Source: a virus
Strand: one strand, 5' to 3'
Length of the DNA stretch: 64,000 nucleotides
IMG/VR virus record: IMGVR_UViG_3300046616_000188
The number at the start of each line of letters is the position of its first letter. Within the stretch, counting starts at the first letter, position 1. Made by a program: the position numbers and the translations under genes. Positions 44,376-49,436 of the stretch are shown piece by piece. A model generated the notes under the pieces. It searched no databases. It saw only the letters and a program-made list of their open reading frames with translations, and was not told where the DNA came from.

Positions 44376-44516
44376 AGCGTACCAGCGTACTAGGTATCTT
44401 CTATTGGAACAATTGAGACAGCTTGACCAAGAGTTTAAAAAATTGGCTGAGCCTATTCTCCGAAAGCTGGTAGAACTTGAGGCTTGCAGGCCTTGCCCTC
44501 TTTTAAGCGAGCTACA

Positions 44517-45062
44517 ATGGAAAACGATAACATCATCCGATACGATTTAATCGCTCAAGCCCTTGACTTTTATAAAGGTTTAGGCTATAGAGAGATTAAC
44601 GTTCCGTGGCATGTCAGAACTGAAGTCTCTGACATCACTTGCCCAAGCCCTGACAGAGCTTATCCGTTCGAGAATGGCGTGCTGGTAGGATCGGCGGAAC
44701 AGTCAATGATCCAAATGGCATTAGATGGCGAATTGGTCCAAGGCCTAAGCTATGTCACTGTCACACCCTGTTTCAGAAATGAGCCTGAACTAGACCGCTA
44801 CCATCAGAAATATTTTATGAAGGTAGAACTATTTCATTTCGGAATTAATTATCAGGCCTACAGACTTATCCGACACGACGCGTTTCAATTTTTAAAATCT
44901 CTTACGGCTAAAACGATTGATGTTGTTGAATATGACGGACGAAACAGCGATATGGAAATTGATGGTGTCGAAATAGGTTCGTATAACTTTCGCTCCATGA
45001 ACGGCGTTACGTGGACCTGTGGCACCGGCCTAGCCCTGCCGCGATTTACTAAGGTTATGTAA
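44517..45062 (+). CDS. minimal class II aminoacyl-tRNA-synthetase-like catalytic domain
   Basis: Motif 1 LGYREINVP; GSAEQS; motif 2 TPCFRNE..HQKYFMKVEL; EIGSY; motif 3 GTGLALPRF; no anticodon-binding domain. Confidence 0.72.
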   Translation: MENDNIIRYDLIAQALDFYKGLGYREINVPWHVRTEVSDITCPSPDRAYPFENGVLVGSAEQSMIQMALDGELVQGLSYVTVTPCFRNEPELDRYHQKYFMKVELFHFGINYQAYRLIRHDAFQFLKSLTAKTIDVVEYDGRNSDMEIDGVEIGSYNFRSMNGVTWTCGTGLALPRFTKVM

Positions 45063-45191: not shown

Positions 45192-46924
45192 ATGACCATA
45201 AAAATTGATAGGGTTGACGGGCTATATGTCGCCCGTTGTACCTATGAAGAACGATTAATCCTTAAAAGACAAGGGTTTAAGTATAACGGTAAACGATGGA
45301 TCACTGAAAGTGACGATATCGCTCGTAAGTTATATGACAATTGTACCGGTTTGGCTAAAGAACGTCTCGATAACTTAGACGAGATTAAGAGGCAGCTGGT
45401 AGAAGCATCGTTTGCCGATGATTATGACGGACACCTCCTTGCCCCTGAAGGCTTGAATTATCTCCCGTTCCAGCGCGCCGGTATTGCGTTCGCGTTGGAG
45501 CGTGACGATACGCTTATTGCAGATAGTCCCGGCTTGGGAAAACTGTTCAGGCATTAGGTGTAGTTAACAACGTCCCTAATGTCAAGAATATCTTAATCGT
45601 TGTTCCCGCCTCCCTTAAAATCAATTGGAAAAAGGAGGCGACGAAGTGGATAAGACCTGAGCTTGGCCTAACAATTGGCATAGCTCACACAAAAGCTAAA
45701 ACTATTATAGATTCTGAAGGCACGAAAAAATCTGTCACAGAATACATCTGGCCCGATGAAGATATTGTCATTATCAATTACGACATGCTAGCTCCGTTTC
45801 GCGAAAAGGTCATGGCGCGTAAGTGGGATATTTTAGTCTGTGACGAGGCTCACGTCCTCAAGAACAAAGACGCTAATAAGACAAAGCAAGTCTTAGGTTA
45901 CGAAGGTAAACGCCGCAGCGATAAGATGTCAGCGATTGAAGCTGTTAGAAGGATATTCCTAACCGGTACTCCGATTCTCAATAAGCCGTTGGACATGTTC
46001 TGCACCATCTCGGCCTTCGGCTATGAAGATGTTTTTGGCAACTACGTTAAATTTATTAAAAAATTCTGCGCCGCGTTCGAAACCCCTTGGGGGCATTGGG
46101 ACACGACAGGAACGGATAATCTTGAGGAATTTCAAGAGCTTCTTCGTTCCACCTTCATGATCAGAAGACATAAGGACGACGTTCTGAAGGAGCTTCCGCC
46201 TAAGAGGCGGCAAATCATTACACTGCCTCAAGACGGCCTGTCTCGAATTGTCAAAAAGGAAAAGCAGATTTTCCAAGACAACCTGAAAAATCTCATGATC
46301 CTGAACGGTGAAAAAACCGAGGCAGATTATGAGGAAATGACTGACACGCAGCTTCGTCACCTCATTGATAATATTCACGAAAGAACCAGAAATTTCTCAG
46401 ACGTGGAAGACTTCGACAATTACGAGGCGACTCATTTCGAAGCCATAGCGCATGCCAGAGAAGAAATTGGCTTGGCCAAACTTCCGATGATGATTGAGTA
46501 TATCAGGTCGTTGGTCGATACGGGTGAAAAAGTTGTGGTGCTCGTGGTCCATAGAACTGTGGCTCATAGGATCGCGGATGCGTTCGAAGGTTCAGTTAAA
46601 TTTATTGGAGGCATGAGTGACAAGGAAAAGAATCTTTCTGTTGAGACTTTCCAGACTGATCCAGATTGTAAGGTTTTCGTTGGTAACATCAATGCTGCTG
46701 GCGTTGGTATTACTCTTACTGAGTCGTGGAATCTTGTTATGGGCGAACTATGTTTCGTCCCTGCCTTATTAGAACAAGGCGAAGATAGGATTCACAGAAT
46801 TGGACAAGTGGCTCATGCCTTGATTCATTACCTCATTGTGTCTGGATCACTGGAAGAGCGCTTGATGGAAATCGTGTTAGAGAAACTAGAAATGATTCAT
46901 GCAGCGTTGGATAGAAAGAAATGA
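45192..46924 (+). CDS. SNF2/SMARCAL1-like helicase read through a -1 frameshift at about 45542 (577 aa joined)
   Basis: Frame 0 ends ...LIADSPGLGK; the -1 frame continues TVQAL...IVVPASLKINW...DEAH...LTGTP...QGEDRIHRIGQ with no stop to 46924. Confidence 0.85.
45536..45583 (+). promoter_or_regulatory. candidate programmed -1 ribosomal frameshift signal
   Basis: In-frame X_XXY_YYZ heptamer G_GGA_AAA (45536-42), 7-nt spacer, 9-bp stem GGCATTAGG(45550-58)/CCTAATGTC(45575-83). Confidence 0.5.
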
Positions 46925-47417: not shown

Positions 47418-48332
47418 ATGATTAAGAAGATGATTATGGGTGCCGCACTTGTTCTGGCCGCAACGATGGGCTCGGTCAGCCTCGCTCAGGCCGAAACCCC
47501 GACGCTGAAGTTTTGCTCCGGTGCAAAGGGTGGGGTTTACGACTACACCGCCGAAGTGCTGAAGCAGCAACTTGCTGGCACGGTAGACGTTGTCAACGTT
47601 AACACCGCTGGTTCTATGGATAACCTTCAGAAGATCGCGAGTGGCGAATGTGACGCAGCTGCGGCGCAGAGTGATAGTCTTTATCTCTATGGTAAGGAAA
47701 ATCCGAATGCGCTCGATCTGATCGTTCTGGAAAATAACCTCTATACCGAATTCTTCCACCTGATTTGTAATCGCAAGTCTGGCGTGACGCAGTTTTCCGA
47801 CCTGACCAAGAGCACTCTGGTTTACTCCGGTGGGCGAGGTTCCGGTTCCGATGTTTCACTTCGCGGCCTAATCGCGGCTGATGTTGAACACGGCGGCGGG
47901 GATTACAAGGAAGTTCCGATCAGTAATGAAGGCGGCGCTGCTGCTTTGATTAAGCTTAACGGCGGTAAGGGTGCGTGCCTCGCTTATACCGGCGCTCCGG
48001 GTGGTAAGTTTGTTTCCGGTGATGCTTCGAAGTTCGCTGAATCTCTGGTCATCGTGCCGGTAGAAGATAAGGACTTCAATGATGCGGAATACACCGACTC
48101 GAACGGTGTGAAGCAGTCGGTTTGGTCCAACGTAACGATGCCTTACTCTTCTTACGGCAAGCTGATGCCTAGTGGGACATTCGGTCGCAAAGACGTTGCC
48201 ACGATGGGCGTTGCGGCTGAAATCATTGTCTCTTCGGCTTGGTCCACCGCAAATCCTGACGCCTTTGGTGAAGTAGGCCTCTCTATCCCTGACGTGAAGA
48301 ATTTGGTCCGCTCGACCAAGAAGCTTCAGTAA
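47418..48332 (+). CDS. TAXI-family TRAP transporter solute-binding protein
   Basis: Sec signal ending AQA; SGAKGGVY, TAGSMDNL, AAAQSD, LYTEFFHL, GGRGSGS. Confidence 0.8.
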   Translation: MIKKMIMGAALVLAATMGSVSLAQAETPTLKFCSGAKGGVYDYTAEVLKQQLAGTVDVVNVNTAGSMDNLQKIASGECDAAAAQSDSLYLYGKENPNALDLIVLENNLYTEFFHLICNRKSGVTQFSDLTKSTLVYSGGRGSGSDVSLRGLIAADVEHGGGDYKEVPISNEGGAAALIKLNGGKGACLAYTGAPGGKFVSGDASKFAESLVIVPVEDKDFNDAEYTDSNGVKQSVWSNVTMPYSSYGKLMPSGTFGRKDVATMGVAAEIIVSSAWSTANPDAFGEVGLSIPDVKNLVRSTKKLQ

Positions 48333-48419: not shown

Positions 48420-49436
48420 ATGAAACCGTTGATTAAATTGGAATTTGGTTCAGCACTTTATGGTACGAAGACTCCTGAAAGTGATACGGATTATAAGGGC
48501 GTCCACGTCCCTGACGCAAATAGCCTTGTGACGCAGGACGCGGATCGTGTCATCTCTAACTCGACTGGTTCGGATAAGATCAAGAATACAAAAGATGACG
48601 TGGATGATGAGAGTTATTCTATTCTGAAGTTCTTTGATATGTTGAAACGGGGAGATATGGTGGCGCAGGAGCTATTACACGTCCCGGTAGAGAAAGCCCT
48701 TGTCATGTCGCCGGAATGGAAAGACCTTATTCTTCCCAATAAGCACAAACTTGTGGCCCGCGATATCAAGGGCTTTGTCGGCTATATCCGCACTCAGTCA
48801 AATCGTTATGGGATTCGCGGCTCACGTGTCGCCACGGCTCGTAACGCGATGGACTTGTTTTCGTTTTGGGTAGCTAGTTATGGCGCTAATACCAAGATCA
48901 AAGATGTGCCCATGTTCCACGAGGAGCTTGAACGCTTCATCGTAGTGAATGATCACGCCGCGTTCGTGACGTTGCCTGTGGCTAAAGGCAGCACTGAAAC
49001 AGTGGAATATTTCGAGGCGATAAATCGTAAAGTTGGCTACACCATTGCTCTGAAAGAAGCTCACGCGATCTACAAGCGTAGTTTCGATGAGTACGGCTCT
49101 AGAGCGCTAATGGCTGAGCAGAATGAGGGTGTGGACTGGAAAGCACTGTATCACGCCATACGTGTCTCGGAGCAGGCCATGGAACTGCTTCAAACGGGTG
49201 TAATCACTTTCCCACGTCACAACGCCGCTGAGCTTCTGACGATTAAGCGTGGCGAACATCCTTATAAAGATATTGCCACTATGCTCGAAAATAATCTTGA
49301 CAAATTAGAAAATTTAATGTTAGTATCTGATTTGCCAGACGCGGTTGATGAAGACTTTATGGATGACGTGGTTCACGATCTTCACTTAAATCAGATTATG
49401 GACGAGTATCAATTAACTTGGGACCTGAATGTTTAA
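48420..49436 (+). CDS. Pol-beta superfamily nucleotidyltransferase (RlaP/PF10127-like)
   Basis: FGSALYGT.TPESDTDYKG; DWKALYHAIR; LLTIKRGE. Confidence 0.8.
   Translation: MKPLIKLEFGSALYGTKTPESDTDYKGVHVPDANSLVTQDADRVISNSTGSDKIKNTKDDVDDESYSILKFFDMLKRGDMVAQELLHVPVEKALVMSPEWKDLILPNKHKLVARDIKGFVGYIRTQSNRYGIRGSRVATARNAMDLFSFWVASYGANTKIKDVPMFHEELERFIVVNDHAAFVTLPVAKGSTETVEYFEAINRKVGYTIALKEAHAIYKRSFDEYGSRALMAEQNEGVDWKALYHAIRVSEQAMELLQTGVITFPRHNAAELLTIKRGEHPYKDIATMLENNLDKLENLMLVSDLPDAVDEDFMDDVVHDLHLNQIMDEYQLTWDLNV

What the first reader, a model, noticed from the sequence alone, without database searches (positions are those of the whole stretch)
45192..46924. SNF2 helicase split at Walker A with a textbook -1 frameshift signal
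Seen in sequence: frame 0 stops four codons after GLGK (TAG at 45555-57), and the -1 frame supplies T-VQ and every remaining SNF2 motif. The junction is an in-frame X_XXY_YYZ heptamer, G_GGA_AAA (45536-42). It is followed after 7 nt by a 9-bp stem (45550-58/45575-83) whose left arm contains the frame-0 stop. Established: phage tail-chaperone and dnaX -1 frameshifts use the same heptamer-spacer-structure layout. Inference: the gene yields a 121-aa N-terminal product and a minority 577-aa full-length ATPase, which is an unusual gene for phage recoding. A single lost A in a homopolymer, from an assembly error or a recent mutation, gives the same picture.
Basis: partly seen in the sequence, partly recalled or inferred. 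Interest (0 to 1): 0.72.

Follow-up and report, generated by a model that had tools for sequence, protein, structure and literature searches.

The report
Phage helicase gene needing ribosome slippage
A helicase gene of an uncultured large phage has truly lost one A inside its ATP-binding-loop codons, at a textbook slippery site followed by a hairpin; an unrelated phage lineage shows the same layout, so ribosomes probably slip back one base to make the full enzyme, but a simply dead gene is not excluded.

Summary
The break is real DNA, not a one-off assembly error: three other assemblies from other samples are 100% identical over 4.7-7.1 kb, and no A5 allele of this genotype is on record.

It is not an ancestral, conserved recoding site. 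All sequenced relatives (45-89% amino-acid identity) encode one continuous 570-581-aa protein, without the heptamer or the stem. One has an intact GGA AAA ACG (A5), so the window is an A5-to-A4 deletion.

A second, independent lineage of the same helicase family (L028, about 41% identity) has the same layout:
- the same G_GGA_AAA heptamer at the same codons
- the same 7-nt spacer
- a different but strong hairpin

Two diverged genotypes of that lineage share the shift. The two shifted genes have the most structured downstream segments of 24 homologues tested.

Best reading (about 0.5): a one-base deletion offset by -1 ribosomal frameshifting, with the 121-aa product a by-product. Main rival (about 0.35): a recent null allele.

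Earlier notes of this scan reported the same heptamer in the Walker A of another helicase family in other phages. I did not test that claim. The DNA of the second shifted genotype could not be fetched because the look-up of encoding contigs closed.

The parts
45192..45557 (+). Frame-0 ORF, 121 aa. It holds the N-terminal domain, the Q motif (YLPFQRAG) and the P-loop up to GLGK, then the out-of-frame tail LFRH and TAG.
   Evidence: aligns to residues 1-117 of intact homologues
45536..45542 (+). Slippery heptamer G_GGA_AAA in the frame-0 register. tRNA-Gly can re-pair GGA to GGG and tRNA-Lys AAA to AAA.
   Evidence: identical in L006-L008; the same heptamer at the same codons in L028
45539..45542 (+). 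A4 run, the site of the missing base. The intact form would be GGA AAA ACT (A5).
   Evidence: relative L020 has CTT GGA AAA ACG intact; L019 and L022 have GGC AAA ACN
45543..45549 (+). 7-nt spacer between the heptamer and the inner stem
   Evidence: the same 7-nt spacing in L028
45544..45590 (+). Two-part hairpin: outer helix 45544-48/45586-90 and inner 9-bp stem 45550-58/45575-83 (one G.U). The 5' arm contains the frame-0 stop at 45555-57.
   Evidence: -14.3 kcal/mol, z -3.3; -13.6, z -3.5; absent in relatives; most structured of 24 homologous sites together with L028
45542..46924 (+). -1 frame continuation, 460 codons plus TGA: Thr of the P-loop (GKT), then all remaining SNF2 motifs (DEAH, Helicase_C)
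   Evidence: There is no ATG/GTG/TTG in this frame before 45785, so independent initiation would give a protein without motif I.

Best explanation
The gene is an SNF2-family helicase/translocase of an uncultured phage of at least 188 kb.

Shown: its P-loop codons, once TTG GGA AAA ACT, have lost one A (A5 to A4), and this allele is the only one on record for this phage genotype. The deletion leaves the canonical -1 heptamer G_GGA_AAA in frame 0, followed after 7 nt by a hairpin.

Inferred: a fraction of ribosomes pause on the hairpin. With tRNA-Gly on GGA and tRNA-Lys on AAA they slip back one base to GGG AAA and continue as ...PGLGK-TVQALG..., making the full 577-aa ATPase. The remaining ribosomes stop four codons later and release a 121-aa stub that ends inside the P-loop and is probably useless.

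This is 'compensatory' frameshifting of a tolerated indel. It may also lower the dose of helicase. It is not an ancient two-product recoding device.
For: 1. The break is real. L006, L007 and L008 (JGI 3300046660, SRR26076590, SRR26076614) are 100% identical to the window over 4.7-7.1 kb, including the A4. Fragments P0124 and P0125 are also identical. No full-length allele of this genotype exists among about 15 billion proteins.
2. There is only one lesion. Both pieces align without gaps or stops to intact homologues. The conceptual 577-aa protein has 2-3 private changes at otherwise invariant positions, the same as intact relatives with 0-5.
3. The family is under strong purifying selection: omega is about 0.03-0.07 in the pairs where dS could be estimated.
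4. An independent replicate exists. L028/L029 (about 41% identity, other samples) read CTG GGA AAA CAA TTC AGG CAG...: the same heptamer at the same codons, the same 7-nt spacer, and a different hairpin (GGCAGUG/CACUGCC plus an outer helix, -17.5 kcal/mol, z -3.2 to -4.5).
5. Among 24 homologous sites, the two shifted genes have the two most negative z-scores. The 22 intact sites have mean -0.44, minimum -2.7, and none at or below -3. The chance of both ranking top is 1 in 276.
6. In the L028 lineage two non-identical genotypes share the shift (P0014+P0129 and P0128+P0130). An intact 584-aa protein, P0127, is the outgroup.
7. The four base changes inferred in the 51-nt two-frame overlap are all non-synonymous in frame 0. 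In the helicase frame, three are synonymous and one is R to K. One of them turns an A-U stem pair into G.U.
8. The last 135 residues of the two shifted genotypes are unchanged.
9. The window's stem depends on four synonymous codon choices (CAG GCA TTA GG) that differ from its nearest relatives (CAA GCC CTT GG).
10. G_GG.A_AA.A is listed among the more efficient heptamers used by IS elements in bacteria (PMC4066793). Compensatory frameshifting of indels, with a useless non-shift product, is a recognised class (PMC5009743).
Against: - The nearest relatives (89% aa, about 78% nt, dS saturated) and all others are continuous, with no heptamer and no stem. Conservation within the window's own lineage therefore cannot be shown: only one genotype is known.
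- The heptamer is almost a by-product of the codons GGA AAA A, which are also the likeliest place for a deletion.
- The hairpin is unexceptional by raw energy: 14% of windows in this genome fold as well.
- A scan of IMG/VR (2.9 million viral contigs) found no further shifted SNF2 gene, and 40 distant loci are all in frame. The state is therefore rare and apparently short-lived.
- The shifted L028 clade evolves about 4 times faster at the protein level than its intact sister (14 vs 3 and 18 vs 5 unique changes). This indicates relaxed constraint.
- There is no upstream SD-like stimulator (sequence) and no Rfam frameshift element.
- Earlier E. coli work rated G_GG.A_AA.A inefficient compared with ...AAG (PMC4066793).
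- There are no expression data.
Confidence: 0.5

Rival explanations
1. A recent null mutation. One A was lost from the A5 run, the helicase is dispensable or complemented, and the gene is a young pseudogene. The heptamer follows from the codons, the hairpin is coincidental, and slippage is negligible.
For: - Every relative is continuous.
- The split form is known from a single genotype, identical in all contigs.
- The heptamer is nearly automatic.
- The hairpin energy lies within the genomic range.
- The same helicase is found split elsewhere, mid-gene, in cultured Caulobacter phage BL57. Other short representatives diverge just after the P-loop, so broken copies of this gene do occur.
- The shifted L028 clade shows an accelerated protein rate.
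Against: - Two independent lineages carry the deletion together with the two strongest hairpins of 24 homologues, at identical spacing.
- The shift persists in two diverged genotypes with no further stop or indel in 458 codons. Changes around the site are synonymous in the helicase frame.
- The window copy shows no extra lesions and no excess of private changes.
Confidence: 0.35
2. One reading: an evolved two-product programmed frameshift, in which the 121-aa frame-0 protein has its own function and the 577-aa ATPase is a set minority product, as in dnaX or lambda G/GT.
For: The heptamer-spacer-hairpin layout is canonical. The layout recurs in L028.
Against: - The frame-0 product ends inside the P-loop of RecA lobe 1, not at a domain boundary.
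- The frame-0 tails differ in length and sequence between lineages (4 vs 17 codons) and evolve fast, with 4 of 17 changed between close genotypes.
- The N-terminal region is never a separate protein in relatives.
- The site is absent from the nearest relatives.
Confidence: 0.07
3. A sequencing or assembly artefact: the true sequence has A5 and the ORF is continuous.
For: Homopolymers are classic error sites. The samples appear to belong to one project, so a shared systematic error is conceivable.
Against: - Four contigs, built by two different pipelines (JGI and Logan), hold the identical A4.
- No A5 allele has been called anywhere.
- A run of only four or five A is not a typical short-read error site (general knowledge).
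- In L028 the shift is seen in two different genotypes.
Confidence: 0.04

Closest known systems
Phage lambda G/GT tail-assembly-chaperone -1 frameshift (G_GGA_AAG) and homologous g-t sites
   Same: Same heptamer class (G_GGA_AAR), same tandem tRNA-Gly/tRNA-Lys slippage, and a phage gene. G_GGA_AAG is rated highly shift-prone in E. coli (PMC5009743).
   Different: In lambda both products are functional, the site lies at the end of a complete protein, and it is conserved across tailed phages. Here the frame-0 product is a stub ending in a catalytic loop, the last base is A rather than G, and the nearest relatives lack the site.
E. coli dnaX tau/gamma frameshift (A_AAA_AAG with an upstream SD-like element and a downstream stem-loop)
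   Same: Heptamer, short spacer and stem-loop layout, in a replication-related ATPase gene.
   Different: dnaX has an upstream SD-like stimulator (none here), gives a truncated functional gamma by shifting INTO a stop, and is conserved. Here shifting is needed to make the long product.
Bacterial IS elements (IS3 and IS1 families) that use G_GG.A_AA.A with a hairpin or pseudoknot
   Same: The very same heptamer is used productively with a downstream structure, to make a fusion protein at low level (PMC4066793).
   Different: In IS elements the two ORFs are separate functional modules and the site is conserved within families.
Compensatory ('corrective' or 'savior indel') frameshifting, such as the herpes simplex thymidine kinase G-run indels
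   Same: A one-base indel in a homopolymer of a viral enzyme gene is partly rescued by low-level ribosomal slippage, and the non-shift product is useless (PMC5009743).
   Different: Those cases lack a canonical heptamer-plus-hairpin signal. Here the context looks like a full -1 signal, and the layout has arisen twice.

Membership tests
SNF2-family (SF2) ATPase | SNF2-related N-lobe and Helicase_C C-lobe above Pfam thresholds | tested here: met
   PF00176 3.1e-30 and PF00271 7e-7 on the -1 frame piece; PHROG 62 DNA helicase 6e-74; a profile of homologues hits Sulfolobus SNF2/Rad54 1z63, SMARCAL1 9jao and INO80 at about 1e-43
SNF2-family (SF2) ATPase | Intact motif I (GxGKT) in one polypeptide | tested here: not met
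   GLGK is in frame 0 and T in frame -1. It is met only if a -1 shift occurs.
Canonical -1 programmed ribosomal frameshift signal | X_XXY_YYZ heptamer in the frame-0 register that allows both tRNAs to re-pair | tested here: met
   G_GGA_AAA at 45536-42; frame arithmetic checked from ATG 45192
Canonical -1 programmed ribosomal frameshift signal | Stimulatory RNA structure 5-9 nt downstream | tested here: met
   9-bp stem after 7 nt, -14.3 kcal/mol, z -3.3. Such a stem occurs at 0.5% of positions.
Canonical -1 programmed ribosomal frameshift signal | Shift site and structure conserved in homologues, with covariation | tested here: inconclusive
   Absent from all relatives of the window's own lineage. 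Present independently in L028, and kept in two genotypes there with an A-U to G.U change. The hairpins are analogous, not homologous pair by pair.
Canonical -1 programmed ribosomal frameshift signal | Trans-frame protein actually made | not testable with these tools
   Needs a reporter assay, ribosome profiling or mass spectrometry
dnaX-type signal | SD-like element 6-17 nt upstream of the heptamer | tested here: not met
   No GGAG, GAGG, AGGA or GGNGG in 45506-45535 (read)
Pseudogene (decaying) | Several lesions, or relaxed constraint relative to intact homologues | tested here: inconclusive
   Window copy: a single lesion and 2-3 private changes, like intact relatives. This is expected for either a very young null allele or a working gene. 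The L028 clade shows about 4-fold protein-rate acceleration but no further lesion.

The most novel reading that the evidence does not exclude
One-base deletions in the GGA AAA A codons of the helicase P-loop are repeatedly retained in phages because the site doubles as an efficient -1 frameshift signal. Selection then builds or keeps the downstream hairpin. The benefit could be a lower helicase dose. Or it could be immunity to the inteins and homing endonucleases that insert exactly at GK|T in this family (seen in 9 of 40 IMG/VR loci and in phage Domovoi), since the deletion sits on their target site. With the unverified earlier scan notes on an XPB-like helicase of jumbo phages, this would make P-loop recoding a general, unannotated feature of phage helicase genes.
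Probability: 0.15. Interest if true: 0.8.

Novelty: new variant of a known kind. Interest (0 to 1): 0.55.

Why it matters
If the slippage is real, this is a -1 frameshift placed inside a catalytic motif of a replication or repair enzyme. The non-shifted product is a useless stub, and the arrangement has arisen at least twice in one helicase family.

It would matter in three ways:
- Annotators would miscall such genes as pseudogenes or as two ORFs, as every gene caller did here.
- It gives a natural example of an indel rescued by recoding in a DNA phage.
- It gives a testable link between homopolymer deletions, frameshift signals and the mobile elements that target the P-loop codons.

If the slippage is not real, this is an ordinary fresh frameshift mutation in a metagenomic phage.

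Tried and rejected
Searches that found nothing useful:
- Megablast of the region against 50,697 phage records gave no match. The best cultured-phage homologues are under 40% identical and continuous.
- An exact A4/A5 pattern scan of IMG/VR found nothing, so the genotype is not there.
- A degenerate 'shifted P-loop' pattern scan of IMG/VR gave 73 loci. All were intact genes written GGG CTT GGG AAA ACN or chance matches.
- The metagenome-contig scan added only one relative at 80% identity, and it is intact.
- IMG/VR holds no close relative of L028.
- Rfam has no frameshift element here, and there is no internal promoter or terminator of note.

Readings rejected:
- Transcriptional slippage: a run of four A is far too short (general knowledge; PMC5009743).
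- Independent initiation of the downstream piece: the first start codon in that frame is at 45785, downstream of motifs I and Ia.
- A two-subunit split enzyme: the break lies within the P-loop.

Analyses that did not settle anything:
- N-terminal domain identity. An AlphaFold model (pLDDT 71) gave no significant PDB match and Pfam found nothing. A HARP-like reading remains an untested impression.
- dN/dS of the window against its nearest relatives. dS is saturated, so the age of the shift cannot be dated.

Not possible: fetching the DNA of P0128/P0130 (second shifted genotype) and P0127 (intact sister). The look-up of encoding contigs closed.

Full report
**1. What is in the sequence**

The window is a gene-dense, tRNA-free stretch of about 43-46% G+C, coding almost entirely on one strand. 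Its neighbours are phage-type genes: RNA ligase, an RlaP-like protein and an NMT1_3/TAXI binding protein. No whole genome is held for it. The longest contig carrying its proteins is 188,398 bp.

At 45192 an ATG opens a 121-codon ORF that ends ...ADSPGLGK-LFRH-TAG (stop at 45555-57). The -1 frame, entered at A45542, reads TVQALGVVNN... for 460 codons to TGA at 46922-24. That piece carries SNF2-rel_dom and Helicase_C and matches PHROG 62. A profile of homologues matches Sulfolobus SNF2/Rad54, SMARCAL1 and INO80 ATPases.

The two pieces add up to 577 aa and align end to end with intact homologues, with the junction exactly at GLGK|T. The Pfam SNF2 domain of the intact homologue starts at residue 94. 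The break therefore lies inside the ATPase core, not between domains.

- G_GGA_AAA (45536-42) is in the X_XXY_YYZ register.
- After a 7-nt spacer comes a 9-bp stem (45550-58/45575-83, one G.U), extended by an outer 5-bp helix. MFE is -14.3 kcal/mol and z is -3.3.
- There is no ATG, GTG or TTG in the -1 frame before 45785. The full enzyme can therefore be made only by a frame change.

**2. Artefact or real**

The exact 379-aa downstream ORF is found on contigs from JGI 3300046660, SRR26076590 and SRR26076614. All have the same 121 + 379 aa gene calls. These loci are 100% identical to the window over 4.7-7.1 kb, including the A4. Two further short contigs carry identical fragments.

No full-length allele of this genotype appears among the family hits or in its 90% cluster. 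The missing base is thus a property of the phage population, not of one assembly.

**3. Relatives of the window's lineage**

Three IMG/VR loci (89% aa, about 78% nt), one metagenome locus (80%) and six further contigs (73-88%) all encode one continuous 577-580-aa protein.

At the site they read, for example, CTT GGC AAG ACG. L020 reads CTT GGA AAA ACG (an intact A5) and L019 reads TTG GGC AAA ACG. The window is therefore TTG GGA AAA ACT minus one A.

None of these relatives has the heptamer together with a shift, and none has the stem (z between +1.1 and -1.2). The 121-aa N-terminal region exists as a separate protein only in this genotype; every other homologue of it is fused.

dS between the window and its nearest relatives is saturated, with dN about 0.086. 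Omega in the family is about 0.03-0.07 where it can be estimated. The conceptual window protein carries only 2-3 private changes at invariant positions, like intact relatives. The shift is therefore either young or harmless. These data cannot tell which.

**4. An independent replicate**

Unchecked earlier notes of this scan described the same heptamer in the Walker A of another helicase family. This prompted me to look at family hits that were too short.

P0014 (458 aa, about 41% identical to the window) lies on L028/L029. There a 149-aa ORF ends ...ADSPGLGK-QFRQWELRTHCLGLEKH, and the -1 frame continues GKTIQAVGIANALPW.... The DNA reads CTG GGA AAA CAA TTC AGG CAG TGG...:
- the same heptamer at the same codons
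- A4 where A5 is needed
- the same 7-nt spacer
- a hairpin with a different 3' arm and loop (GGCAGUG/CACUGCC plus an outer helix; -17.5 kcal/mol; z -3.2 to -4.5)

I found L028 by protein length, not by structure, so its hairpin is an unbiased test.

Across 22 non-redundant intact homologous sites, the equivalent 48 nt have mean z -0.44 and minimum -2.7. The two shifted genes score -3.45 and -4.47, the two most extreme of 24. The window's stem depends on four synonymous codon choices that differ from its nearest relatives.

**5. Persistence of the shift in the L028 lineage**

The 90% cluster of P0014 holds a second, non-identical shifted genotype (P0128 with N piece P0130) and an intact 584-aa protein, P0127.

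| Comparison | Result |
|---|---|
| The two shifted genotypes, downstream piece | 95% identical; no change in the last 135 residues |
| The two shifted genotypes, true N-terminal part | 94% identical |
| The two shifted genotypes, out-of-frame tail | 13 of 17 identical |
| P0127 (intact) against the shifted genotypes | outgroup, 37-39 vs 23 differences |

Reading the two frames together gives four base changes in the 51-nt overlap. All four are non-synonymous in frame 0. In the helicase frame three are synonymous and one is R to K. One changes a stem A-U pair to G.U, one hits a bulge, and the reconstructed hairpin still folds at -15.7 kcal/mol. This is what continued translation of the -1 frame predicts.

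Against this, the shifted clade has about 4 times more unique amino-acid changes than its intact sister (14 vs 3 and 18 vs 5). Constraint is therefore at least partly relaxed.

**6. How common is it**

It is rare. A degenerate scan of IMG/VR for the shifted P-loop found only intact genes or chance matches. Forty distant IMG/VR homologues are all in frame. Cultured-phage homologues are continuous, apart from one mid-gene split (BL57) and intein-bearing genes.

A profile search of 1.84 billion representatives listed many short N-terminal fragments. Most continue TIQ... after GLGK and are contig-end or downstream truncations.

**7. Weighing the explanations**

The heptamer is almost forced by the codons. 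These points favour an ordinary deletion.

Three things are hard to reconcile with an inert mutation:
- the deletion has been caught twice, both times with the strongest local hairpins in the family at identical spacing
- it has survived divergence in one lineage
- the downstream frame shows substitution patterns of a translated gene

The simplest account is a survivor effect. A5-to-A4 deletions happen everywhere, but persist only where the context supports enough -1 slippage to supply the enzyme. G_GG.A_AA.A is a motif that IS elements use productively (PMC4066793). Compensatory frameshifting with a useless non-shift product is a recognised class (PMC5009743).

My estimates are about 0.5 for functional slippage, 0.35 for a young null allele, 0.07 for a true two-product device and 0.04 for an artefact. 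No paper in the held library describes frameshifting in a phage SNF2 or Walker A context.

**8. Comparison with known systems**

In mechanism it works like lambda G/GT and like IS3-family signals, with the same Gly/Lys heptamer class and a downstream structure.

It fails two criteria for membership of the dnaX or G/GT type of programmed two-product sites. The frame-0 product is not a complete functional protein, and the site is not conserved in the lineage. It also lacks the dnaX upstream SD-like element.

It fits best as a compensatory -1 frameshift with a canonical signal, in a new gene context.

Noticed in passing
L111, L113, L115, L127-L129, L136, L144 (about 1.2 kb upstream of position 1501); L104:292-3270: Inteins sit exactly at GLGK|T of this helicase family. 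Nine of 40 IMG/VR loci end ...THN|TCQSIG, and Brevundimonas phage Domovoi reads ...PGLGK|MASVNTPVLTPSGW.... This is the same codon boundary as the window's missing A. The P-loop codons are thus a target of mobile elements.
   Followed up: partly
L027:1480-1520: Another family member is broken at the same place by 5 extra bases: CCG GGG TTG TAGTG GGA AAA ACC. A stop follows directly after ...PGL, and the next ORF starts GTG GGA AAA (called MGKT). This could be stop-start coupling, a short hop or a plain indel. It is unexplained.
   Followed up: partly
L025:410-450 and L026:500-1520: A further member has 7 extra bases flanked by a CTT repeat (GGC CTT TGAGCTT GGA AAA ACG; take-off and landing-like CUU UGA G CUU). 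In addition, a DUF559 (Vsr-like endonuclease) ORF is inserted between the Q motif and the P-loop region of the helicase gene.
   Followed up: partly
P0252, P0260, P0204: 50%-cluster representatives of the N-terminal region end or change frame right at the P-loop (...DDMGL-stop...DEMGL-ESIRRH......PGLG-PR-stop). No DNA was available to see the cause.
   Followed up: no
L103:1030-1110 (Caulobacter phage BL57, PQ287320.1): The homologous helicase of a cultured phiCbK-like phage is annotated as two overlapping CDS (269 aa + 389 aa), split mid-gene rather than at Walker A. This is either a frameshift or a sequencing error in that record.
   Followed up: partly
window 44484-45062: A 181-192-aa ORF lies just upstream, with no Pfam hit on record. 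An earlier first-reader note calls it a minimal class II aaRS-like core. I did not examine it.
   Followed up: no
window 47418-48332 and 48420-49436: A phage-encoded NMT1_3/TAXI-type solute-binding protein with a signal-peptide-like N-terminus, followed by an RlaP-family nucleotidyltransferase. Both are conserved next to the helicase in relatives.
   Followed up: no
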